Below are positions 4,389 through 47,759 of a stretch of DNA of 64,000 nt, piece after piece. The stretch comes from Nitrosopumilus sp. (GTDB lineage: Bacteria; Desulfobacterota; Binatia; UBA1149; SPBQ01): assembly GCA_964225545.1 (NCBI GenBank), contig CAXQPB010000037.1:1989-65988 (forward strand), given 5' to 3'. Made by a program: the position numbers and the translations under genes. Each line of letters starts with the position of its first letter. Position 1 is the first letter of the stretch. The notes below the pieces were generated by a model that was given only the letters and a program-made list of their open reading frames with translations, did no database searches and was not told the origin of the DNA.

Positions 4389-6569
4389 TTACTCGGCGCA
4401 GGGAGTGACGCGCACGGGGATGTCGCTCATGCGCGGCAGCCCCGTGAACCGGTCATAGTCACGGTCTACGGGCGTGAGACGTCCGGTGTTCGAACCGATC
4501 TCGCGCAAGCGACCGTCCTGCTCCGGCACGTCGCCGAACGAGTGCGACATCGATACCAACCCCTCGCGGACCGTCGGGTCACTCTCGACGATACCGAAAA
4601 TTGCCGCGTGGTCGGACGCGATCTCGACGCGATCGCCGCTGCTCAGTCCGAGCCGCTTCAGGTCGTTGGGATTCATGTACGCGGGATTGTATGCGCGCCT
4701 GCGACGCAGCCTGGGCAGATCCCGCCCGGAGGAATTGTACGCGGTCATCAAACGCCGCGAGATCAGCCGGTAGGGGTAGCCGTCGCCGTCCATCTCGCGG
4801 CGCGCCTCTCGGGCCAGCAAACCTAGCTCGTTCATCATGTCGGCGTTACCGATATCGAGCCGCCCTTCCCAGCCGTCGTCTTTCGGCTCGACTCGGACAT
4901 CGTGATCGCGAAACACCGCTCCGCCGGGGTGGCGGCGCACCTCATCGAGAGGAACGCGCGATCCGCGCGCGAGCACCTCGCACAGCTCAGCCGTGGTCGG
5001 CTTGTGCGCGTAGTCGAACGTCACCGGCTCGCCTCGGGCCGGTCCGGTCAGTGAGACCGGTTTGAACTGGATCTCCAGGCCCATCCGCTTGCCGGTCTCG
5101 TAGAACAGTTCCCAGTCCTCGACGACGTCGGCTCCCTCCGGCGGGTCGAGCAGCGGGTCGGCATAGTGACCGTAGGATTCCGGATAACCGAACCCCTGGC
5201 TGTACATCGACAGGAAGTCCTGCATCAACGTCATCCCGGTCATTTCGAGCGGAACGGTCGACGCAATGACGTAGTCGGCCATGCGGGCAGTCGCGGACAT
5301 CTTCACATCGATCTGTACGAGCAGATCGAGCTTCCTCATCGCCTCGATGGTCCGCAACTGGTCCGGCCACGCAGCAACCGGATTGCCGCCGATCGAAACG
5401 AGCGCGCGAACCCTTCCTTCGCCTTCGGTCAGGATTTCGTCGGCCAGCGCGGCAGTCGGCATTCCGGCGGCGGTGTTCGCCAGTCCCCGGACGCGCAACT
5501 GCTCTCCGAAGCCGTACGCGCGATACGGTCCGAACGCCTGCGCCTTCGCGAAAAACTGCGGGACCAGCGTCCCGGGATTGAGCACACGCTCGCCCTCGCG
5601 CATCCAGCGTCCGCAGACCGTGTTCAGGCACAGCAGGAGATACTCGAACAGCGTGCCGTGTCCGGCCATGTTCGGGCCGGTTCCAGCACTCGCCGTGCCG
5701 CGACCCGCCGCTGCGAATCGCGTGGCGGCGTCTGCAATCTCTTCGGCGGTGATCCCTGCCCGCGCAGCCGCCTCGTGCGCGGTGAATGGCTTCACCGCAG
5801 CGCGCAGATCTTCGAGTCCGTCGACATTGGCGGCGAGGAACGAGCGGTCCTCGAGTCCCTCATCGAGGATGACCCGAAGCATCGCTGCGAGGATCGCGGC
5901 GTCATGCCCGGGCCTCGGTTGCAGGTGAAGGGTGGCCCTGGACGCCAGCTCTGTACGCCGCGGATCGATCACGATGAGCTCCATCCCGCGCTCGAGAGCT
6001 TCGGTAAGGAAGCGGCCGGGATTGCCCTGCGGGATGCCGCCCGACATCGCGACCAGCGGATTGGCACCAACGAGGAGCGCGACACTGGACGTGCTGAACG
6101 GCTGGAAAGGCGCCATCCACATTCCGTGCAGCGCCTGAGCGACAGCCTTGCCGGGCTGGTCGATGGTGTTCGAGTTGAAGGCCATCCGCGAGCGCAGCGC
6201 CTTCATCCACGCCGTTGCCATCGCGCCGGTCGCAGGGTTGGCTACGCTGAAGGTCCCTGCGTAGGTCGCGATCGCGCGAGGCCCGTACTTTTCACGGATC
6301 GCCTGCAGCTTCTCGGCGATCTCGTCGAACGCGACCCGCGAGGCGATCGGGCGGTGCGCCCCATCCGCCTCTCGCTTCATCGAAGTCAGCAGCCTGTCGG
6401 GATGTTCGCGTGCCTCGAGAAGCTGCTGCCCCTTCACGCAGATGAACCCCTGGTAGATCGGGTCGGCTGCGTTGCCTCTGACGCGCACGGGCTTTTCGTC
6501 CTCGAAATCGACGAGGACACTGCATGCGTTGAAACAGAATCGGCAGATGGTCGGTCGTGATTCCACCAC
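4389..6569 (-). CDS. Molybdopterin-dependent oxidoreductase catalytic subunit (MopB superfamily; formate-dehydrogenase-like / anaerobic dehydrogenase-like, substrate unknown).
   Basis: N-terminal CxxCxxxC...C [4Fe-4S] motif (ICRFCFNACSV...GFICVKG) and molybdopterin oxidoreductase domain architecture. GTG start. Paralog of the gene at 45369..47759. Confidence 0.8.
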   Translation of the reverse strand: MVESRPTICRFCFNACSVLVDFEDEKPVRVRGNAADPIYQGFICVKGQQLLEAREHPDRLLTSMKREADGAHRPIASRVAFDEIAEKLQAIREKYGPRAIATYAGTFSVANPATGAMATAWMKALRSRMAFNSNTIDQPGKAVAQALHGMWMAPFQPFSTSSVALLVGANPLVAMSGGIPQGNPGRFLTEALERGMELIVIDPRRTELASRATLHLQPRPGHDAAILAAMLRVILDEGLEDRSFLAANVDGLEDLRAAVKPFTAHEAAARAGITAEEIADAATRFAAAGRGTASAGTGPNMAGHGTLFEYLLLCLNTVCGRWMREGERVLNPGTLVPQFFAKAQAFGPYRAYGFGEQLRVRGLANTAAGMPTAALADEILTEGEGRVRALVSIGGNPVAAWPDQLRTIEAMRKLDLLVQIDVKMSATARMADYVIASTVPLEMTGMTLMQDFLSMYSQGFGYPESYGHYADPLLDPPEGADVVEDWELFYETGKRMGLEIQFKPVSLTGPARGEPVTFDYAHKPTTAELCEVLARGSRVPLDEVRRHPGGAVFRDHDVRVEPKDDGWEGRLDIGNADMMNELGLLAREARREMDGDGYPYRLISRRLMTAYNSSGRDLPRLRRRRAYNPAYMNPNDLKRLGLSSGDRVEIASDHAAIFGIVESDPTVREGLVSMSHSFGDVPEQDGRLREIGSNTGRLTPVDRDYDRFTGLPRMSDIPVRVTPCAE

Positions 6570-32032: not shown

Positions 32033-32330
32033 GGGCGCGAAAACCTCCTGAACTGCCTCCGAGTCTTCCGGTGAACGCCGTTCGCGACGCTCGGGGCACT
32101 CGGACAGCCGTTCTTTATACCTGCAATACCGTCTCTCGCCACGCCCGGGTCGAACCGGATCGAACCCGGTCAGGGACTTCGAAGTTCACGCAGCCGGGAT
32201 GCCGACCGTGACCTTTGACAGGGTTCCGGCAGCGACCGACAACGGGGGTGGATGGACTGCCGTAATCGCGCGGCGCGGGCTCCGGACCCGGCTCCGGCAT
32301 CGGATTGAAAACCAGACAGGAAAGAAGCGG

Positions 32331-32708
32331 ATGATCGGCTACACCACCATCGGAACCAGCGACCTCGGGCGGGCGACCGCCTTCTATGATGCCCTCCTCG
32401 CAGAGGTCGGCTCCAAGCAACTATTCAACGCCGAGCGAATCTTTTTCTACGGAACCTCGCTCGAGGGCGGCGGAATGCTCGCAGTCTGCACGCCCTACGA
32501 TGAAAAAGATCCGGCACCGGGCAACGGCAACATGGTCGCGATCCCCGGGGGCTCACCCGAGGGAGTCGACCGGTTGTACGCGCGTGCGATCGAGCTGGGG
32601 GCTACCGATGAGGGTGAACCCGGCGAGCGCCTGCCGATCTTTTACGGCGCTTACGTAAGGGATCTCGACGGCAACAAGCTCTGTTTCTTCCACATGTCGC
32701 TCGGCTGA
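32331..32708 (+). CDS. VOC-family protein (glyoxalase/bleomycin-resistance/dioxygenase fold).
   Basis: 125 aa from ATG 32331 (MIGYTTIGTSDLGRATAFY...), the typical VOC N-terminus. Confidence 0.7.
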   Translation: MIGYTTIGTSDLGRATAFYDALLAEVGSKQLFNAERIFFYGTSLEGGGMLAVCTPYDEKDPAPGNGNMVAIPGGSPEGVDRLYARAIELGATDEGEPGERLPIFYGAYVRDLDGNKLCFFHMSLG

Positions 32709-32751: not shown

Positions 32752-33804
32752 TCAGGCCGGATCGCTCCGCGTCGGCGTCACCGCGTCCATCGAATAGCGC
32801 GGCGTACCTTCCTCGAAAAGTTTGAAGAAGTCCTCACCGAACGGGTCGACCCCGAGCATCGGCATGGACCCGCGGCGAATGGTCCAGTCCCGAGGCGAGA
32901 GCTTTCCAGCTGTCTCGAAGTGTCGGGCAGCGGCCTCCTTGCGCCCGTCTTCGTAGAGAAACCAGGCCAGCGCCCGCTCGGCTCTGGACAGCTGTGATTC
33001 GTCGGACGGACCCGGCTGGTGCTCACGAACCGCACCGGCCTCCATCGCTCCCTTTCCGGTCTTGACCCATTCGCGAATCATATCGAGATACGGCGCGGAC
33101 CGCTTGCCGTGGAATTCCGTGAAAATGTCGGTCCCGTACTGGGCGTCATGCGGCCGACAGATCACGCCTTCCTCGTTGATCCAGATCATCGTCGGAACGT
33201 TGGAGATGTTGTAGAGCTCCGCGACGACGTGACCGGTGTCGACGACACTGGGATGCGTCGAACCGGCCCGTTCGATAAACGGCCGGATGTCATCAGCGCT
33301 CCGATCCAGAGCGACCGTGAACGGGACAAAACCCTGATCGCCGAGCTCCTCGTAAAGTGCCTGCCAGACCGGCAGGTCCTCACGGCATCCTCACCAGGAC
33401 GCGTGGGCGATGAGCAGTACTTTTTTGCCTCGGTGCTGCGACAGGCTGTGAAGATTCCCGTCGAGATCGGGCAGGGAAAAATCCGGCGCCTCCAGGGACT
33501 CCATCTGCGCAGCGCGCGCGGCGCGGGGTGTGCCGATTGCAGCAGCTCTCTCGGCGACGTCGAGCGCCAGGGGGCGGTCGAGAAGGTCGGCCAGGCCCCG
33601 AAGGTCGACCTCGCCATCGACAACGAGACGAGACGGGTCCGAGACTCGGACGCAGACTTCGCCGCGACACAAGCCTTCGGGCTTGAGCTCCCATCCGATA
33701 CCCGAGTTCAGGGCATCCGGCGCGATCCGCACAGCCCCGTCGCGGATCTCCACCGGAAGCTCAATCCGTTTTTCTCCGTCGATCAAAAGGACGGGACGGT
33801 TCAT
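32752..33804 (-). CDS. Candidate selenoprotein: TlpA/ResA-like thioredoxin-fold thiol:disulfide oxidoreductase with an in-frame UGA (33391-33393) at the first redox-active position (..LLIAHASW-U-GCREDLP..). It has an N-terminal extra domain and a C-terminal extension.
   Basis: Track ORFs 33391..33804 and 32752..33189 are in the same frame, separated only by one TGA. I translated the intervening 67 codons myself and they are open. The alignment to the WCxPC redoxin motif puts the TGA exactly where the first Cys would be. A SECIS-like hairpin follows. Confidence 0.6.
33357..33383 (-). promoter_or_regulatory. SECIS-like stem-loop 8-14 nt downstream of the in-frame UGA: GUG-AGGA-CCUGCC-GGUCU-GGCAGG-CAC (mRNA sense).
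   Basis: Perfect 6 bp upper stem plus a 3 bp lower stem. The apical loop GGUCU resembles the GGUC loop of the E. coli fdhF SECIS. Position relative to the UGA is appropriate for bacterial SelB recognition. Confidence 0.45.
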
Positions 33805-34084: not shown

Positions 34085-37000
34085 ATGCGCCTGAAAAACG
34101 CCCTTGCTGCCGTCAGCCTGGCTGCCGTTGTGCCGACTGCAGCTCATGCCCAGCCGTCTTACGTGAATTTCGAGTCCGGCTCCGTTCGCCCGATGGCACT
34201 CAGCCCGGACGGCACGCGGTTGTTCGCCGCGAACACACCGGACAACCGCATCGAAGTATTCGATGTCCATGCCGGTGGCATCACTCACACGGAGTCGATC
34301 CCGGTAGGAATGGACCCGGTAGCGATTGCGGCGCGCAGTAACTCCGAGATCTGGGTCGTCAACCATTTGTCCGACAGCGTATCGATCGTCGACGTGTCGG
34401 CGATTCCCGGTCGGGTCGTGACCACGCTTCTCGTCGGCGATGAACCGCGCGATATCGTCTTTGCCGGCACCGGAGGAAACAGGGCCTTCATTACCACAGC
34501 CCACCGCGGACAGCAGCGAACCAATCCCGCGATCGCCGGCGTTCCCGGAGCGGGTGATCCCCAGTTCACAGCTCCGGGAGTCGGCCGGGCGGACGTATGG
34601 GTGTTCGATGCGAACAACCTCGGATCTGCCATCGGCGGAACGCCGCTGGAAATCGTCAGCTTCTTCGCGGACACACCGCGCGGGCTCGCGAAGAAGGCGG
34701 ATGGATCAACCGTCTACGTCTGCGGGTTCAACACGGGAAACCAGACCACGATCGTCAACGAAGGCACGGTATGCGACGGCTTCCAGTCGTCAGGCGGATG
34801 CTCCGGAGACGGGATTTCGATGCCCGGCGGATTGCCGGGAGGTCAGATGCCCGGCGGTGAGCCGGGACCGAGCGCCAACATTGATGGCGTGGCGGCGCCG
34901 GAGGTCGGACTGATCGTCAAATACGACCGGCAGTCGGGAATATGGACCGATGAGCTCTCGCGGAACTGGAATAACGCCGTCCGGTTCAACCTGCCCGACG
35001 AAGACTGCTTCGCCCTCGATGCAGCTACGCTCAATCAGACGGCCGTTCACGCTCACATCGGCACGACGCTCTTCAACGCAGCGGTCCACCCGGTGACCGG
35101 TGATCTCTACGTCTCGAACCAGGAGGCGATCAACGAGGTCCGATTCGAAGGCCCGGGGACCATGACGGGCTCGACCGTCCAGGGCCGGCTGGCCGAGGCT
35201 CGTGTGACAATCATCGAGGATCCCGACACGACCGATCCAAGCGGAGCGAATGTACTCGCACGACACCTGAACAAGCACATCAATTACGCGGTTCTCGCTT
35301 CCGACCCGGGTTTCGACCCGACGGTCCGTGACCACAGCCTCGCAACCCCGCTCGAGATGGTCTTCGACTCGACGGGCACGAAAATCTACATCGCCGCCTT
35401 CGGGTCAGGGAAGGTCGGGGTGCTCGATGCAGCCGCACTCAAGAACGATTCGTTCAACCCGACCACCGCGAGCGCCGACTACATTCAGGTTTCCGGCGGA
35501 GGCCCCGCCGGTCTCATCCTCGACGAGACCAACCAGCAACTCCTCGTCCTGACGCGTTTCGACAACTCGATCTCCGTCGTCGACCTCGGCAGCAACGCAG
35601 AAACGGATCACATCGCGCTGCACAACCCGGAGCCGGCCTCCGTCACCGACGGCAGGCGCTTCCTCTACGATGCCGACTTCACGTCGGCCAACGGCGAGGC
35701 TTCGTGCTCGAGCTGCCACATCTTCGGCGACACGGACCATCTGGCGTGGAACCTCGGCGTCCCCGAGGAACATGTCACCACCAACCCGGTAGGCCCCGGA
35801 GGCATCAAGCTCGGCATCGCAGCGCCGGGAGATACCAATGGTGGCGCAGGCGTCGCCGAGTTCCACCCGATGAAGGGGCCAATGGGAACTCAGACCCTGA
35901 AGGGGCTGTCGACGCATGGCCCGATGCACTGGCGAGGCGATCGCGCCGACGGTGTTTTCGGGAGCGGGACCGGCGAAGAGCTTTCGTTCAATAATTTCAT
36001 CGTCGCATTTCAGGGCCTCGTGGGTCGCGAGTTCGCAATCACGCCGACCGACATGCAGGCATTCACCACTTTCTCGCTCGGAATGATGTTGCCGCCGAAC
36101 CCGGTCCGCGCCCTGGACAATTCGCTCACAGCCGAACAGCAGGGCGGCGCCGATTTCTACCTGGGAACCAGGCTGTCCGATGGTATCCCCGGCTTCGGTT
36201 TCACCTGCAATGGCTGTCACGTGCTCGACAGCTCGCAGGGCTTCTTCGGCACCGATGGCGGCTTCAGCTTCGAGGCCGAGACGCAGATCATGAAGGTCGC
36301 GCATCTGCGCAACCTCTACACTCGAGTCGGCATGTTCGGGATGCCCGACACCGACTTCTTCCGAAGCGGAAACAACGGCGCGCAAGGAGATCAGATCCGC
36401 GGGTTCGGCTTCATCCACGATGCATCGACGGACACGCTTTTCCGGTTCTTCACAGCGGATGTCTTCCAGGAGAACGGAAGCGTGGGCTTCGATGGTCCTC
36501 AGAACGGAGACGACAAACGCCGGCAGATGGAGTCCTTCATGCTGGCTTTCGAGAACGACGTCGCCCCGATTGTCGGCCAGCAGATCACACTCACGAGCAC
36601 CAATGCCGCCACTGTAAATTCCCGAATCGACCTGATGAGCGATCGCTGTCAGACACCCTTCGAATCGGCGACGCTCGGGGGACTGGTCACGGAGTGCGAC
36701 CTCATCGTCAAGGGAGTGTTCGGCGGAGAGGCACGCGGTGCCGTTCTGCAGGGCGGCGTGTTCATCAGCGACCGAGCCGGGGATCCCTCCTTGACCGACG
36801 CACAGATGCGCAGCCTCGCCACGACGCCCGGGCAGGAGATTACCTACACGGCGGTGCCGCCGGGCTCCGGCACGCGCATGGGCATTGATCGCGATCTCGA
36901 TAGCGTTCTGGACGGCGACGACAACTGCCCCGGCACACCGAACGCGGGCCAGGCCGATTCCGACAACAACGGCGTCGGAGATGCCTGCGAGGGCGGCGGA

Positions 37001-37537
37001 GTCACGACAACGACCACCACGTCCACGACCTCGACGACCTCGACGACATCGACAACTTCGACCACTCTGTCCGGAACCCACGGCCCGTTCCCGACTCGGT
37101 CGCTGAAGATTGCCCGGCTGACCAAGCCGGCAGGCCAGCAGAAGCTCACTCTCAAGAGCGAGGACATGGACGGCACCGGCTTGTTCTTCACCCCGCTCAG
37201 CGAGGACCTGACGATTACGCTGTCGCTTCCAAATGGAACCGTTGTGGGTTCCGCGACGATTCCCGCTGGTGATCCGGACTGGAAGGCTTCAGCCTCATCG
37301 TTCCGCTGGAAAGCCAAGGCGGCGCCGCACCCGGAAGGTCTTCGCAGCGCAAGACTGGGCAGCTCCGGACGGCCGTTCGCGTTCAGCACGAAGGCCGGGA
37401 ATATCGACGCTTCGGGGGCTGGATCGGCGGGCGCGGGCGGCTTCGTGATCACGCTGACGATCGGAGATGATGCGTGGTCGGGCCCGACACCCGGATGCCG
37501 GCTCTCCGGGAGTGGAAACACGCTGAAGTGCGGGTGA
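34085..37537 (+). CDS. Large secreted multi-domain protein (1150 aa). N-terminal signal peptide, a YVTN-type beta-propeller repeat region, a di-heme cytochrome c (peroxidase-like) domain with two CxxCH motifs (CSSCH, CNGCH), calcium-binding TSP3-like D-rich repeats, a Thr/Ser-rich linker and a C-terminal domain.
   Basis: Signal peptide MRLKNALAAVSLAAVVPTAAHA. Repeated ...PDG..L(F/Y)..N...(N/S)..V(F/I)D... propeller blades. Two CxxCH motifs about 175 aa apart. DSDNNGVGDACEGGG followed by TTTTTTSTTSTTSTTSTTSTT. Confidence 0.75.
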   Translation: MRLKNALAAVSLAAVVPTAAHAQPSYVNFESGSVRPMALSPDGTRLFAANTPDNRIEVFDVHAGGITHTESIPVGMDPVAIAARSNSEIWVVNHLSDSVSIVDVSAIPGRVVTTLLVGDEPRDIVFAGTGGNRAFITTAHRGQQRTNPAIAGVPGAGDPQFTAPGVGRADVWVFDANNLGSAIGGTPLEIVSFFADTPRGLAKKADGSTVYVCGFNTGNQTTIVNEGTVCDGFQSSGGCSGDGISMPGGLPGGQMPGGEPGPSANIDGVAAPEVGLIVKYDRQSGIWTDELSRNWNNAVRFNLPDEDCFALDAATLNQTAVHAHIGTTLFNAAVHPVTGDLYVSNQEAINEVRFEGPGTMTGSTVQGRLAEARVTIIEDPDTTDPSGANVLARHLNKHINYAVLASDPGFDPTVRDHSLATPLEMVFDSTGTKIYIAAFGSGKVGVLDAAALKNDSFNPTTASADYIQVSGGGPAGLILDETNQQLLVLTRFDNSISVVDLGSNAETDHIALHNPEPASVTDGRRFLYDADFTSANGEASCSSCHIFGDTDHLAWNLGVPEEHVTTNPVGPGGIKLGIAAPGDTNGGAGVAEFHPMKGPMGTQTLKGLSTHGPMHWRGDRADGVFGSGTGEELSFNNFIVAFQGLVGREFAITPTDMQAFTTFSLGMMLPPNPVRALDNSLTAEQQGGADFYLGTRLSDGIPGFGFTCNGCHVLDSSQGFFGTDGGFSFEAETQIMKVAHLRNLYTRVGMFGMPDTDFFRSGNNGAQGDQIRGFGFIHDASTDTLFRFFTADVFQENGSVGFDGPQNGDDKRRQMESFMLAFENDVAPIVGQQITLTSTNAATVNSRIDLMSDRCQTPFESATLGGLVTECDLIVKGVFGGEARGAVLQGGVFISDRAGDPSLTDAQMRSLATTPGQEITYTAVPPGSGTRMGIDRDLDSVLDGDDNCPGTPNAGQADSDNNGVGDACEGGGVTTTTTTSTTSTTSTTSTTSTTLSGTHGPFPTRSLKIARLTKPAGQQKLTLKSEDMDGTGLFFTPLSEDLTITLSLPNGTVVGSATIPAGDPDWKASASSFRWKAKAAPHPEGLRSARLGSSGRPFAFSTKAGNIDASGAGSAGAGGFVITLTIGDDAWSGPTPGCRLSGSGNTLKCG
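37003..37068 (+). repeat. Tandem 9 nt (acgacctcg-type) repeats encoding the poly-Thr/Ser linker of the large secreted protein.
   Basis: Seen directly. Confidence 0.7.
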
Positions 37538-37580: not shown

Positions 37581-38087
37581 CTATTCGTCGCGCAGGATGT
37601 GACAGTTATACCCGCCCGGATTCTTGTCGAGGTAATCCTGATGGTACTGCTCAGCAGTCCAGAACGGACCGAGCTCAGCAACTTCCGTCACGACCGGGTC
37701 TCGCCATCTTCCTGACTCGGCTTCTTCCTTCACGATCTCGGCTGCAATCCGTCTCTGCTCGAGCGATGAGACAAAGATCGCCGAGCGGTACTGCGTGCCG
37801 ACGTCGTTGTGCTGACGGTTGAGCGTCGTGGGGTCGTGGAGGCGGAAAAAGTAGCGCACGATCTCTGCGTAGCTGATCTTCTCCGGGTCGAATTCGACCA
37901 GGACCGCCTCGGCATGACCGGTGTGCCCTCCGCAGACGGACCGGTAGTCCGGCTTGTCCGTCAAGCCTCCCGTATACCCGACCTCCGTGCGAATGACGCC
38001 GTCGAGTTGTTTGAACAGATGCTCAACGCCCCAGAAGCAGCCTGCGGCGAGAACCGCGGTTTCGGTGGTCGTGAACGGGTCGGTCAT
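37581..38087 (-). CDS. msrA: Peptide-methionine (S)-S-oxide reductase MsrA.
   Basis: GCFWGVE active-site motif. Start set at MTDPFTTTE (ATG 38085-38087). Confidence 0.9.
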   Translation of the reverse strand: MTDPFTTTETAVLAAGCFWGVEHLFKQLDGVIRTEVGYTGGLTDKPDYRSVCGGHTGHAEAVLVEFDPEKISYAEIVRYFFRLHDPTTLNRQHNDVGTQYRSAIFVSSLEQRRIAAEIVKEEAESGRWRDPVVTEVAELGPFWTAEQYHQDYLDKNPGGYNCHILRDE

Positions 38088-38433
38088 TTCAAGTGTTCTC
38101 CACGAAACCCTCTGCATCCACAGAGAGACGAATACCGAGAATTTTCGAGAGCGTACCATCAGTCGGCTGCGACTCCCACTGCCGCCCGTCCGTCAATCGA
38201 TCGATTCAGGGGGGATCCGCTGAGACCCCGACAGCCGGCCCGAAGATCGCCGCACCCCCTGCCGGAGCGGTGACCGCCACAGGCGTCGCGCACGCCGAAG
38301 CCCGGCGTTTCTGGCTCTGCAGGCAAAAGACGCACCGGCAGCCCCGCAGACTGCTTCCCTCGAGTCGCGCGGCGGCGTATCCTCTCCCGAGTCCGCTGAA
38401 GTCTGTCGAAGGCTGCGGTGCGGACTTTTTACG

Positions 38434-45368: not shown

Positions 45369-47759
45369 GTGGGAGCAAACAGCCGAGCACAGGAAGCCCA
45401 TCCCAGCGTGTCGAGAAGCGCGATCGAGCTGGACGCGAAAAACCTGCCCACGGTCTGCGTGTTGTGCAGTCACAACTGCGGGATCCGGGTTGATGTGGAA
45501 GATGGGAGAATCACCGAGATCCGTGCCGACCATGAGAATCCGATCTCGCACGGCTACATCTGCAACAAAGCCGTTACATGCGACCGGTATGCCCATCACG
45601 AACAGCGCGTCCTGTCTCCGCTGCAGAAGCAACCCGACGGCAGCTTTGAACCTGTCGACTGGGACACGGCAATCGCCGATATAGGCGCCAGGCTGCGGAC
45701 GATTCGCGACGAACACGGACCGCGCGCGCGCGCGGCGTGCGGCGGCGGCGGGCAGGCCAACCACCTCGACATTCCGTTTCTCCAGATGTGGATGAACGCC
45801 GTCGGAACCCAGCGACTTTTCAACGCCTACGCGCAGGAGAAAACCCAGCACCACCTTATCGATCACTGGATGTTCGATGCACCTTCGACACTGGTCCTTC
45901 ATGCGGATGTGGACGAGGCGACCTACCTCGTGGTGATGGGAACGAATCCTCGAATCAGCAATCGCGGCCACAACCCGACGGAGACGTTCAAGGCCCTCGG
46001 CAAGAAAGACGCATGCAAAGTGGTGGCTGTCGACCCGCGCGAAACCGAGACTACGCGCGGCGCCGACCAACATGTCCGCGTCAGGCCGGGCGGCGACTCG
46101 TACCTGCTCATGGGGATGGCCGCATCGATCGTGCAGAACGAGTTGTACGACGCAGAGTTCGTCGAGGCTCACACAGCCGGAATGAACGAGCTCCGCGACA
46201 TCCTCTCGCGTACCGATGTCGACGAGATGGCACGGCGCGCTGGCCTCGAGGCCGCGACCATTCATTCGATGGCTCGTGAGCTCGCCGAAGCCGAACGCGG
46301 CTCGATCTTCTTCGACCTCGGTGTTGAACAGCAGCCTTTCTCAACGCTGATCTCTTATCTGATCCGTGTGGTCCTGGCGCTGACCGACAATGTCGGTCGA
46401 GCCGGCGGCGACGTGTGGCTCGAACTTCTCGTTCCTCCGACTCTCAGTTCGAGACGATTCGATGAGCCGGAGATAGCGCTGGCTTCGGGCATCCCGGCCG
46501 TGCGCGCGCTCGGCTCCGCGATGTTCTCACCGACGTTAATGCCGGAGGAGATACTCGTCGATCACCCTGAGCGCATCCGTGGCGCCATCATCGAAGGCGC
46601 CAACCCGCTCCTGTCGTACTCGGATACGAACGCATGGCGGACAGCGATCAAAAATCTCGACCTGCTGGTCGTCATCGACCCCGCCTTCACGGAAACGGCA
46701 CAGCTTGCCGACTACGTGCTGCCGCCACCTTGCGGGTATGAAAAGTGGGAGATGGCGATGTTTCCCAAGGGGCACCCGAAGGTCATGACCCAGGTGCGGC
46801 CACCGGTGATTCCAGCGCCGGAACAGGCACGAACGGAGGCCGAGATTTACTCGAGAATCTGCGAGGCGATGGAGATCCTCGAGCCGCTGCCGGACGACCT
46901 GGCGGAGATCGGGAAGCCCGAAACTGCCGAGGCGCGCGCGGCCTTCATGACACAAGCGATGGGACTGGTCGGAGATGTCGCCGCACGCGGGATCAACGCC
47001 GAATCGCAGATCACCTACTGGGCTTATCGTGGCATCGGACACCACTTTCCAGCGCCGAACCTGATCGCGGTGTGGGCACTGATGGTACGCAACGCGCTCG
47101 AACGGAGCGAGCATGTACTCGCGACGCTCGGTCCGGAGTGGGCTGAGCGCAATCCCTTCGAAATCGGCGAGGAGCTCATGCGCCGTGTTCTGGATCACCC
47201 CGAGGGCGTCGAGATCGCCGATGTTTCGGCCAAGGACAACCTGTTCGACAACATGGGCTTCGATGACAAGCGGGTGAGGCTGTCACCCGAACCGATGCTC
47301 GCCGAGATGGAGCGGTTGCTCGAGACCGACATCGCGCACGACCCCGACTACCCGTTTGTCCTCGCAAGTGGACTTCGAACACGCTGGACCGCGAACACCA
47401 TCCAACGTGCGCCGGAGTGGCGGAAAGGAAGCGGCCCGCATTGCGAGCTCAATTTGCACCCGGAAGATGCCCGATCACTCGGCGTTACCAAGGGCGACAT
47501 GGTTCGCGTGACGACAACGCGTGGCTCTTTCGAACTGCCGGCGACTCTCGACACCAAGCTGATGCAGGGTCATTGCTGGATGCCGAACGGCTTCGGCATG
47601 CAGTACGGCAAGGATGCGAACGGCCCCTTCGAGATCGAAGGTGTCAACATGAATGAGATCACCGACGTTGCGGAGCGAGACCCCTTTACCGGGTGCCCGC
47701 ATCATCGTTATGTACGGGTGAAGCTCACGTCTCTGACGACGGCCGAAGCAACGGTCTGA
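45369..47759 (+). CDS. Molybdopterin-dependent oxidoreductase catalytic subunit (MopB superfamily), paralog of 4389..6569.
   Basis: CVLCSHNCGIRV...GYICNKA N-terminal Fe-S motif and an approximately 800 aa MopB architecture. GTG start. Confidence 0.85.
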   Translation: MGANSRAQEAHPSVSRSAIELDAKNLPTVCVLCSHNCGIRVDVEDGRITEIRADHENPISHGYICNKAVTCDRYAHHEQRVLSPLQKQPDGSFEPVDWDTAIADIGARLRTIRDEHGPRARAACGGGGQANHLDIPFLQMWMNAVGTQRLFNAYAQEKTQHHLIDHWMFDAPSTLVLHADVDEATYLVVMGTNPRISNRGHNPTETFKALGKKDACKVVAVDPRETETTRGADQHVRVRPGGDSYLLMGMAASIVQNELYDAEFVEAHTAGMNELRDILSRTDVDEMARRAGLEAATIHSMARELAEAERGSIFFDLGVEQQPFSTLISYLIRVVLALTDNVGRAGGDVWLELLVPPTLSSRRFDEPEIALASGIPAVRALGSAMFSPTLMPEEILVDHPERIRGAIIEGANPLLSYSDTNAWRTAIKNLDLLVVIDPAFTETAQLADYVLPPPCGYEKWEMAMFPKGHPKVMTQVRPPVIPAPEQARTEAEIYSRICEAMEILEPLPDDLAEIGKPETAEARAAFMTQAMGLVGDVAARGINAESQITYWAYRGIGHHFPAPNLIAVWALMVRNALERSEHVLATLGPEWAERNPFEIGEELMRRVLDHPEGVEIADVSAKDNLFDNMGFDDKRVRLSPEPMLAEMERLLETDIAHDPDYPFVLASGLRTRWTANTIQRAPEWRKGSGPHCELNLHPEDARSLGVTKGDMVRVTTTRGSFELPATLDTKLMQGHCWMPNGFGMQYGKDANGPFEIEGVNMNEITDVAERDPFTGCPHHRYVRVKLTSLTTAEATV

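What the first reader, a model, noticed from the sequence alone, without database searches (positions are those of the whole stretch)
33357..33383. SECIS-like element with a GGUCU apical loop
The hairpin geometry and the loop sequence match the features needed for SelB binding in the best-studied bacterial SECIS (fdhF). The element lies within the coding sequence immediately 3' of the UGA, as bacterial SECIS elements do.
Basis: partly seen in the sequence, partly recalled or inferred. Interest (0 to 1): 0.6.

Follow-up and report, generated by a model that had tools for sequence, protein, structure and literature searches.

The report
Bacterial SECIS hairpin, TlpA-like selenoprotein
A 17-base RNA hairpin just after an in-frame UGA in a thioredoxin-like gene is a genuine selenocysteine-insertion signal, kept in all 94 UGA-bearing relatives and decayed in cysteine-bearing ones; it is a good example of a known kind of element, not a new one.

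Summary
A 350-codon ResA/TlpA-like gene (33804..32752) has one in-frame UGA (33393..33391) at the first active-site Cys position (motif W-U-G-C). Fourteen bases downstream lies the hairpin CCUGCC-GGUCU-GGCAGG (33376..33360, -10 kcal/mol).

On its own the hairpin is unremarkable: about 2 such motifs are expected per window, and fold z-scores are near -2.

Comparison decides it. All 94 UGA orthologs keep three features: the stem, a G(U/G) dinucleotide in the loop, and a Watson-Crick pair flanking that dinucleotide. Only 1 of 58 Cys orthologs keeps all three.

The flanking pair switches G:C to C:G (CCG-GUC to CCC-GUG) at least 6-8 times independently, with no intermediate seen. The closing pair also covaries (CG, UG, UA, GC).

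So the conserved signal is N-G(U/G)-N' plus an unpaired U on a 6-bp stem, not the literal GGUCU. It meets all four criteria of the published bacterial SECIS model. It differs from E. coli fdhF: 2 nt further from the UGA, no 5' bulged U, and no match to Rfam SECIS_2/3.

The protein family (UGC-containing TlpA-like selenoprotein; near NCBIfam NF041054) is already catalogued. SelB binding was not tested, and the window holds no selenocysteine machinery genes.

The parts
32752..33804 (-). Selenoprotein gene of 350 codons including one UGA. Layout: an N-terminal domain of about 100 aa, a ResA/TlpA-like thioredoxin fold (residues about 105-225), and a C-terminal helical domain. Its own terminator is also TGA.
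   Evidence: Translation. Pfam AhpC-TSA/Redoxin. NCBIfam NF041054 at 239 bits. Full-length Cys homologs at E=1e-138. PDB ResA alignment. Stop codon.
33391..33393 (-). In-frame UGA, codon 138, read as selenocysteine. It aligns with the first (N-terminal) Cys of the ResA CxxC motif. The local motif is W-U-G-C.
   Evidence: The same codon is TGA in 94 orthologs and TGC/TGT in 58. In the window, 19 of 24 Pfam-supported genes end in TGA, so the codon is not globally reassigned.
33385..33387 (-). UGC codon for Cys140. This is the partner cysteine of the U-G-C redox motif, a CxxC motif shortened by one residue.
   Evidence: It is Cys (TGC 64, TGT 6) in the 70 genome-derived Sec sequences, and the search motif that defined all 152 compared loci requires Cys at this position.
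33377..33390 (-). 14-nt spacer (GGAUGCCGUGAGGA) between the UGA and the base of the hairpin. No conserved pairing was found in it.
   Evidence: There are no indels in any of the 94 Sec orthologs, although the length is also fixed by the protein.
33371..33376 (-). 5' arm of the SECIS stem, CCUGCC. It is made of Asp143 third base, the Leu144 CUG codon, and Pro145 first two bases.
   Evidence: Leu144 is CUG in 93 of 94 Sec orthologs, although CUC is the preferred Leu codon of these genes.
33366..33370 (-). Apical loop GGUCU. G33370 and C33367 form a covarying Watson-Crick pair. G33369-U33368 is the dinucleotide that would be presented to SelB. U33366 is unpaired and is the first base of the Trp147 codon.
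   Evidence: The loop pair is GC in 44 and CG in 26 of 70 orthologs, with 0 unpaired. There are at least 6-8 independent switches. G(U/G) is present in 94 of 94.
33360..33365 (-). 3' arm of the SECIS stem, GGCAGG. It is made of Trp147 second and third bases, the Gln148 CAG codon, and Ala149 first base.
   Evidence: Gln148 is CAG in 94 of 94 Sec orthologs, against CAG 40 and CAA 12 in Cys orthologs.

Best explanation
The hairpin at 33376..33360 (minus strand) is the selenocysteine insertion sequence (SECIS) of a UGC-motif, ResA/TlpA-like thiol-disulfide oxidoreductase selenoprotein.

Shown here:
- The UGA sits at the position of the nucleophilic active-site Cys.
- The reading frame continues and is conserved past the UGA.
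- A 6-bp stem is under RNA-level selection only in UGA-bearing genes. It carries a G(U/G) dinucleotide flanked by a Watson-Crick pair, followed by one unpaired U.

Inferred from established knowledge of bacterial Sec decoding (E. coli fdhF and Moorella SelB-SECIS work):
- SelB carrying GTP and Sec-tRNA(Sec) binds the apical part of this hairpin through its C-terminal winged-helix domain.
- SelB recognises the extruded GpU (G33369-U33368) presented on the closed loop pair.
- This tethers the ternary complex at the mRNA entrance when the UGA, 21 nt upstream of that G, reaches the A site. Sec then outcompetes RF2.

The hairpin is written in the codons for D-L-P-V-W-Q-A. The protein itself demands L-P-x-W-Q, whose codons are self-complementary (CUG CC / GG CAG). 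The RNA additionally fixes Val146 (GUN supplies the GU; a Gly GGG/GGC codon supplies GG in the loci with GG loops), CUG for Leu, CAG for Gln, and complementary third bases in Pro145 and Val146.
For: (a) Gene and UGA. The ORF has a single TGA in the motif HASW-U-GCRED. It has the thioredoxin/ResA fold, and the UGA aligns to Cys74 of B. subtilis ResA. The best NCBIfam hit is the selenoprotein model WAxxUGC_long.

(b) Homolog classes. There are 99 full-length homologs with WCGC, plus about 200-aa C-terminal fragments of the kind expected from gene callers that treat the UGA as a stop.

(c) Sec versus Cys orthologs. All 94 TGA orthologs have the inner 5 bp, the loop Watson-Crick pair and G(U/G). 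Only 1 of 58 Cys orthologs does (Fisher p about 2e-41, not corrected for phylogeny). Mean 17-mer MFE is -9.3 against -4.5 kcal/mol.

(d) Covariation.
- Loop pair: GC 44, CG 26, never unpaired.
- Closing pair: CG 57, UG 9, UA 2, GC 2.
- 100% of cells are paired, 0 of 500 shuffles reach this, and slid controls give at most 57% paired.
- RNAalifold independently returns the same helix.
- There are 6 independent loop-pair switches on a 70-sequence NJ tree and 8 on the 94 Sec sequences of the combined 152-sequence tree. That tree has 7 Sec/Cys transitions.

(e) Synonymous constraint. Gln148 CAG and Leu144 CUG are among the least variable of 133 conserved degenerate codons. The probability of all features given the peptide and the genes' own codon usage is 0.14. 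Observed: 66 of 66 in Sec genes and 1 of 15 in Cys genes encoding the same peptide.

(f) Position 146. It is Val in 69 of 70 genome-derived Sec orthologs but free in 99 Cys proteins (V48, G30, A13 and others).

(g) Published model. The element meets all four criteria of the bSECIS model in PMC13188914: loop 5 nt, stem 6 bp, GG/GU at the loop start, spacing 20 nt, MFE -10.0.

(h) TGA is the ordinary stop codon in this genome (19 of 24 genes), so a local recoding signal is required.
Against: - There is no biochemical evidence for SelB binding or Sec insertion.
- No selA, selB, selD or tRNA-Sec is present in the 64 kb, so the organism's Sec competence is inferred, not shown.
- Rfam bacterial SECIS models give no hit even at E<=10.
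- The single-sequence statistics are weak.
- RNAfold prefers a competing GGACC/GGUCU hairpin in the 42-nt and 141-nt contexts of this window.
- The stem overlaps a peptide motif (LPxWQ) that the protein conserves anyway, and 16 of 58 Cys orthologs have a full 6-bp stem for free. Part of the stem conservation is therefore not attributable to the RNA.
- The Sec/Cys contrasts are not fully corrected for phylogeny.
Confidence: 0.88

Rival explanations
1. The hairpin is a passive by-product of coding. The protein needs L-P-V-W-Q, whose GC-rich codons happen to be self-complementary. The UGA is then a true stop, a pseudogene lesion or a sequencing error.
For: L-P-x-W-Q is conserved in Cys homologs too. 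Of 58 Cys orthologs, 16 have a full 6-bp stem and 23 have the inner 5 bp without any UGA. About 2 such hairpins are expected per window by chance.
Against: - TGA sits at exactly the catalytic-Cys codon in 94 orthologs from many MAGs and metagenomes, and the downstream frame is conserved at 50-68% amino-acid identity.
- Given the peptide and the codon usage, only 14% of encodings would have all features, yet 66 of 66 Sec genes do and 1 of 15 Cys genes with the same peptide does.
- CUG is used in 93 of 94 although CUC is the preferred Leu codon.
- The third bases of Pro145 and Val146 covary perfectly, which no protein constraint explains.
Confidence: 0.03
2. The conserved hairpin acts on UGA decoding without SelB. 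For example, it could slow the ribosome or block RF2 so that a near-cognate tRNA (Trp or Cys) reads the UGA. Alternatively it could serve mRNA stability or processing.
For: No Sec machinery is visible in the window. Binding to SelB is untested. A stable GC hairpin 14 nt after a stop codon could in principle stimulate read-through.
Against: - The conserved details are those defined for SelB recognition, not for a roadblock: an invariant G(U/G) at the tip, a covarying pair that presents it, and a small loop (bSECIS model in PMC13188914; G23/U24 of fdhF in PMC8659212).
- The UGA replaces a redox-active Cys in a thioredoxin fold, which is the classic Sec/Cys pair.
- The family is already catalogued as a selenoprotein.
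- A mere roadblock would not need the loop sequence.
Confidence: 0.05
3. The functional structure in this window is the alternative hairpin GGACC-UGCC-GGUCU (33379..33366), which RNAfold prefers in some contexts, and not the CCUGCC/GGCAGG hairpin.
For: It is part of the MFE structure of the 42-nt and 141-nt segments.
Against: It cannot form in the 26 orthologs with CCC-GUG or the 23 with CCC-GGG. RNAalifold and the pair counts support only CCUGCC/GGCAGG. In the 57-nt context the canonical hairpin is the MFE structure.
Confidence: 0.03

Closest known systems
E. coli fdhF SECIS (Rfam RF01988 SECIS_2)
   Same: - It is a hairpin inside the coding sequence directly 3' of the Sec UGA.
- The tip has a GpU flanked by G and C. 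The hexamer GGUCUG is identical (fdhF nt 22-27, here nt 24-29).
- The stem sequence is otherwise free to vary.
   Different: - The GpU lies 2 nt further from the UGA (G25/U26 against G23/U24).
- The spacer to the minimal hairpin is 14 nt, not 11.
- There is no 5' bulged U17. Instead there is an unpaired U on the 3' side of the loop pair.
- No extended lower helix reaches back to the UGA.
- The Rfam model scores fdhF at 87 bits but gives nothing here at E<=10.
Consensus bacterial SECIS model (bSECISearch; described in PMC13188914)
   Same: All four stated constraints are met: loop 3-9 nt (5), stem 4-16 bp (6), G in the first two loop positions followed by G or U, 16-37 nt from the UGA to the loop (20), and MFE <= -7.5 (-10.0).
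   Different: The published loop pattern is N1-G-[G|U]-N-N2 with N1:N2 paired. Here the covarying pair directly flanks the dinucleotide (N1-G-[U|G]-N1'), and an invariant U follows it.
[quoted passage not shown]
   Same: It shares the U-G-C motif in a TlpA/ResA-like thioredoxin fold, a length of about 350 aa, and the same N-terminal 200 residues of architecture. Some orthologs read exactly W-A-S-W-U-G-C.
   Different: The window protein scores 239 bits, and five orthologs score 254-275 bits, all below the curated 300-bit cut-off. Only profile positions about 5-205 of 354 align, so the C-terminal half differs. The window motif is H-A-S-W-U-G-C. The listed exemplar MDE0950781.1 could not be compared.
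SelB-SECIS complexes (E. coli NMR; Moorella thermoacetica crystal structure). Recalled from my own knowledge of Fourmy et al. 2002 and Yoshizawa et al. 2005, not retrieved here.
   Same: As recalled, a Watson-Crick loop pair forms in the complex and leaves GpU exposed for the SelB winged-helix domain. The natural G:C to C:G covariation flanking the G(U/G) seen here is what that geometry predicts.
   Different: No structure or binding data exist for this element. A quarter of the Sec orthologs (24 of 94) present GG instead of GU.

Membership tests
Bacterial SECIS (bSECIS consensus model, PMC13188914) | Located in the coding sequence downstream of an in-frame UGA that aligns with Cys in homologs | tested here: met
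   The UGA at codon 138 aligns to Cys in 58 orthologous loci and 99 proteins.
Bacterial SECIS (bSECIS consensus model, PMC13188914) | Apical loop of 3-9 nt on an upper stem of 4-16 bp | tested here: met
   A 5-nt loop and a 6-bp stem.
Bacterial SECIS (bSECIS consensus model, PMC13188914) | G in the first two loop positions, usually followed by G or U | tested here: met
   The loop is GGUCU. G(U/G) is present in 94 of 94 Sec orthologs.
Bacterial SECIS (bSECIS consensus model, PMC13188914) | 16-37 nt between the UGA and the apical loop | tested here: met
   20 nt (positions 4-23 after the UGA).
Bacterial SECIS (bSECIS consensus model, PMC13188914) | MFE <= -7.5 kcal/mol | tested here: met
   -10.0 kcal/mol for the 17-mer. 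The mean over the Sec orthologs is -9.3.
Bacterial SECIS (functional definition) | Binds SelB and directs selenium-dependent UGA read-through | not testable with these tools
   This needs biochemistry or genetics.
Bacterial SECIS (functional definition) | The host genome encodes selA, selB, selD and tRNA-Sec | not testable with these tools
   None were found in the 64-kb window. The rest of the genome is not available.
Rfam SECIS_2 / SECIS_3 (RF01988, RF01989; enterobacterial fdh-type) | Covariance-model score at or above the gathering threshold | tested here: not met
   No hit at gathering score or at E<=10. In the positive control, fdhF scores 87.1 bits on RF01988; its weaker 35.8-bit match to RF01989 is below that family's 63-bit gathering score.
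E. coli fdhF-type SECIS | GpU exposed in the apical loop (G23, U24) | tested here: met
   G25-U26 lies between the covarying pair G24:C27. The fdhF features are taken from PMC8659212.
E. coli fdhF-type SECIS | Bulged U (U17) on the 5' side of the upper stem | tested here: not met
   The 5' arm CCUGCC is fully paired in 70 of 70. The only unpaired U is 3' of the loop pair.
E. coli fdhF-type SECIS | Minimal 17-nt hairpin placed 11 nt from the UGA | tested here: not met
   The hairpin is 17 nt, but the spacer is 14 nt.
NCBIfam NF041054 WAxxUGC_long (equivalog) | HMM score at or above the curated cut-off of 300 bits | tested here: not met
   239 bits for the window protein with U replaced by C, and 254-275 bits for five orthologs. 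Only the N-terminal part of the profile, about 200 positions, aligns.
NCBIfam NF041054 WAxxUGC_long (equivalog) | W-A-x-x-U-G-C motif in a ResA-like fold | tested here: inconclusive
   U-G-C and the ResA fold are present. The window has H-A-S-W-U-G-C. Most orthologs have Y-A-S-W-U-G-C and some have W-A-S-W-U-G-C.
[quoted passage not shown] | UGC motif with Sec in a TlpA-like (cd02966) thioredoxin fold | tested here: met
.
[quoted passage not shown] | Sequence homology to the listed exemplar MDE0950781.1 | not tested
   The exemplar sequence could not be retrieved with the tools.

The most novel reading that the evidence does not exclude
This family may define a distinct, lineage-specific SECIS subclass (Myxococcota, Binatia and 'Deltaproteobacteria' MAGs). 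Its SelB would read a two-base G(U/G) 'diloop' closed by any Watson-Crick pair, with a 3' unpaired U replacing the 5' bulged U17 of E. coli.

The protein's own L-P-x-W-Q motif is a codon palindrome that supplies the SECIS stem for free. That would pre-adapt the gene for repeated Cys-to-Sec and Sec-to-Cys switching; 7 transitions are inferred on the tree.

If true, this would be a natural and unusually clean case of a protein motif and a recoding signal co-evolving in the same seven codons.
Probability: 0.3. Interest if true: 0.45.

Novelty: new member of a known kind. Interest (0 to 1): 0.3.

Why it matters
The result corrects an annotation trap. Gene callers split this gene at the UGA, and the databases hold many 200-aa 'hypothetical' C-terminal fragments.

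It also gives a well-controlled natural data set: 94 Sec against 58 Cys orthologs, including genes that encode the identical peptide. This shows which nucleotides of a non-enterobacterial SECIS are under RNA-level selection.

The G:C to C:G covariation flanking the G(U/G) dinucleotide is independent, sequence-based support for the loop-pair geometry inferred from SelB-SECIS structures. It could sharpen bSECIS search patterns for GC-rich uncultured lineages.

It does not change what is known about the mechanism of Sec insertion.

Tried and rejected
- **Rfam at gathering score and at E<=10.** No hit. The control shows that Rfam's bacterial SECIS models are narrow, fdh-specific families, so this negative result says little.
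Not conserved.
- **RNAalifold's small helix around the UGA (alignment columns 4-7 with 14-17).** Three of its four pairs are invariant and the fourth varies only at a synonymous site (TGC/TGT), all within protein-constrained codons, so it gives no covariation support for that helix.
- **Single-sequence significance.** Marginal, and there is an alternative fold.
- **Search for Sec machinery or tRNA-Sec in the window.** None found.
- **Scan for other UGA-interrupted genes in the window.** Nothing convincing turned up. The GC3>=0.75 filter was too strict and even dropped the true gene.
- **Look-up of the source contig through the 137-aa N-terminal product.** Not on record.
- **Literature look-ups for G23/U24 details.** PMC4605307 and PMC4513850 contained none of these terms. 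PMC8659212 and PMC13188914 were used instead.
- **The Fourmy 2002 and Yoshizawa 2005 structural statements.** These could not be retrieved and are marked as my own knowledge.
- **Global UGA reassignment.** Rejected, because TGA terminates 19 of 24 genes.

Full report
**1. What is at the coordinates**

The reported interval makes sense only on the minus strand. There, 33383..33357 reads GUGAGGA-CCUGCC-GGUCU-GGCAGG-CAC.

It lies inside an ORF running 33804..32752 on the minus strand. The ORF has 350 codons and one in-frame TGA at 33393..33391 (codon 138), in the motif I-A-H-A-S-W-U-G-C-R-E-D.

The protein has an AhpC-TSA/Redoxin domain. Its closest solved relatives are ResA/TlpA thiol-disulfide oxidoreductases. 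The UGA aligns with the first Cys of the ResA CxxC motif. Cys140 aligns with the second Cys, with one residue deleted between them, giving U-x-C.

The best NCBIfam model is NF041054, 'ResA-like WAxxUGC motif-containing protein'. It is a selenoprotein model, but the score of 239 bits is below the 300-bit cut-off.

TGA is the normal terminator here. It ends 19 of 24 Pfam-supported genes, including this gene itself. The internal UGA therefore needs a local recoding signal.

**2. Is the hairpin more than chance?**

From this sequence alone, barely.
- The 17-mer CCUGCCGGUCUGGCAGG folds at -10.0 kcal/mol.
- Fold z-scores are -1.9 (57 nt) and -2.1 (42 nt).
- The window contains 70 perfect 6-bp/5-nt-loop hairpins against about 53 expected. 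Three carry this loop motif against about 2 expected.
- In the 42-nt and 141-nt contexts RNAfold prefers a competing GGACC/GGUCU hairpin.

The case therefore rests on placement and on comparison.

**3. Comparative evidence**

A protein search found two classes of homolog:
- full-length proteins of about 345 aa with W-C-G-C, at 43-62% identity;
- fragments of about 200 aa, at 63-68% identity, that start just after the hairpin. This is the signature of gene callers stopping at a Sec UGA.

I fetched 80 genomic loci (MAGs labelled Myxococcota, Binatia and 'Deltaproteobacteria') and 80 metagenomic loci. Of these, 94 have TGA and 58 have TGC/TGT at the homologous codon.

All 94 TGA loci have the inner 5 bp of the stem, a Watson-Crick pair between loop nucleotides 1 and 4, and G(U/G) between them. 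Only 1 of 58 Cys loci (L057) has all three. Mean 17-mer MFE is -9.3 against -4.5 kcal/mol.

On the 70-sequence alignment A2:
- The 7-pair structure is paired in 100% of cells. None of 500 shuffles reaches this, and slid controls give at most 57%.
- RNAalifold independently predicts the 6-bp helix.
- The closing pair covaries through nonsynonymous changes: CG 57, UG 9, UA 2, GC 2 (for example GAG...CAA in L079/L080 and GAU...AAG in L076).

The most telling signal is at two synonymous sites. Pro145 and Val146 are CCG-GUC (or UCG-GUC) in 43 sequences and CCC-GUG in 26, plus one CCG-GGC (L013, Val to Gly). They are never CCG-GUG or CCC-GUC. This G:C to C:G double switch happened at least 6 times on a neighbour-joining tree built without the hairpin codons, and 8 times on the combined tree.

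A second Sec clade with the peptide RYDLPGWQ always uses CCC-GGG, giving the loop C-GG-G-U. L013 uses CCG-GGC.

**4. Separating RNA constraint from protein constraint**

The peptide L-P-x-W-Q is conserved in Cys homologs too. Its codons are self-complementary (CUG CC / GG CAG), and 16 of 58 Cys genes have a full stem for free.

RNA-level constraint is nevertheless clear:
- Leu144 is CUG in 93 of 94 Sec genes, although CUC is the preferred Leu codon of these genes (47% against 37%). Gln148 is CAG in 94 of 94. Cys genes use CUG in 27 of 58 and CAA in 12 of 58.
- Both codons are among the least variable of 133 conserved degenerate codons.
- Position 146 is Val in 69 of 70 genome-derived Sec genes but free in 99 Cys proteins: V48, G30, A13 and others.
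- Given the peptide DLPVWQ and the genes' own codon usage, 14% of encodings would show all features. Observed: 66 of 66 in Sec genes and 1 of 15 in Cys genes with that same peptide.
- Cys clades nested within Sec clades show decay: CUC, CUA, CAA, GUU, and mismatched loop bases.

**5. Mechanism**

What is shown: selection specific to UGA-bearing genes maintains a 6-bp stem presenting N-G(U/G)-N' plus an unpaired U. The G lies 21 nt after the UGA.

What is inferred: SelB carrying GTP and Sec-tRNA(Sec) binds this tip and delivers Sec when the UGA is in the A site. This follows from the E. coli fdhF paradigm, where U17, G23 and U24 are the critical bases and a 17-nt hairpin lies 11 nt from the UGA (PMC8659212). 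It also follows from the consensus bSECIS model (PMC13188914).

From my own knowledge (Fourmy et al. 2002, not retrieved here), a Watson-Crick loop pair forms in the SelB complex and leaves GpU exposed. The covariation found here fits that geometry.

**6. Comparison with known elements**

I verified the fdhF SECIS sequence in 5,419 E. coli genomes and used it as a positive control for Rfam. It scores 87 bits on RF01988. The window element has no hit at E<=10.
- Shared with fdhF: the location, the GpU, and the hexamer GGUCUG.
- Different from fdhF: the GpU is 2 nt further from the UGA, the spacer is 14 nt instead of 11, there is no 5' bulged U, and there is no conserved lower helix.

The element meets all four bSECIS criteria: loop 5 nt, stem 6 bp, G followed by G or U at the loop start, spacing 20 nt, and MFE -10.

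[quoted passage not shown] It is adjacent to NCBIfam NF041054, although the window protein and five orthologs score 239-275 bits, below the cut-off, and match only the N-terminal 200 or so profile positions.

**7. Limits**

- No selA, selB, selD or tRNA-Sec is present in the window.
- There is no binding or expression evidence.
- The trees are neighbour-joining with parsimony counts, and the Fisher test ignores phylogeny.
- The direction of the 7 Sec/Cys transitions is unknown.

**8. Verdict**

The interpretation as a SECIS is supported.

One refinement matters: the conserved determinant is N-G(U/G)-N'-U on a 6-bp stem, not the GGUCU string.

This is a new member of a known kind in a known selenoprotein family. 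It is solid but of modest interest.

Noticed in passing
L097, L099, L103, L104, L106, L107, L112 and others (23 metagenome loci), at the position homologous to window 33370..33366: A second clade of UGA orthologs (peptide RYDLPGWQ) always uses CCC-GGG, giving the loop C-GG-G-U. The presented dinucleotide is therefore GG rather than GU, still flanked by a Watson-Crick pair.
   Followed up: partly
L013:1904-1972 and L017:1746-1814 (two contigs of one MAG): One MAG carries two UGA copies of the gene. One copy has Val146 changed to Gly (CCG-GGC, loop G-GG-C-U). It is the only GG loop within the otherwise GU clade. This could be paralogy or a mixed bin.
   Followed up: no
window 33360..33376 and the homologous codons in the 58 Cys loci: The protein motif L-P-x-W-Q is a codon palindrome (CUG CC / GG CAG), and 16 of 58 Cys orthologs form the full 6-bp stem with no UGA. 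This may pre-adapt the gene for Cys/Sec switching; 7 transitions are inferred on the NJ tree.
   Followed up: partly
window 33366..33379 (minus strand): A competing hairpin, GGACC-UGCC-GGUCU, is the RNAfold MFE in the 42-nt and 141-nt contexts of this window. It cannot form in orthologs with CGUGU or CGGGU loops.
   Followed up: yes
window 34085..37537 (+): A 1150-aa ORF is transcribed divergently from the selenoprotein gene. It has only weak beta-propeller (lactonase/SGL) and TSP3-repeat Pfam hits. Long ORFs on the opposite strand overlap it and have no hits.
   Followed up: partly
window 4389..6569 (-) and 45369..47759 (+): Two molybdopterin-oxidoreductase genes (Fe4S4, Molybdopterin and Molydop_binding domains) are uninterrupted ORFs with no in-frame TGA. 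If they are formate-dehydrogenase-like, they are not Sec forms.
   Followed up: no
window 37581..38159 (-) and 32199..32708 (+): A peptide methionine sulfoxide reductase gene (msrA) and a weak glyoxalase-like ORF lie near the selenoprotein gene. Whether this redox neighbourhood is conserved in the related loci was not checked.
   Followed up: no
whole window: TGA is by far the commonest stop codon, ending 19 of 24 Pfam-supported genes. G+C is 62.5%. No tRNA gene and no Rfam family at gathering score were found in the 64 kb.
   Followed up: yes
proteins P0072-P0120 (about 200-aa entries): Public protein sets hold many 'hypothetical protein' entries that are C-terminal fragments of this selenoprotein, starting at an M/V/L-W-Q-A-L-Y-E-E-L or M/L-Y-E-E-L start. 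This shows systematic mis-annotation at the Sec codon.
   Followed up: partly
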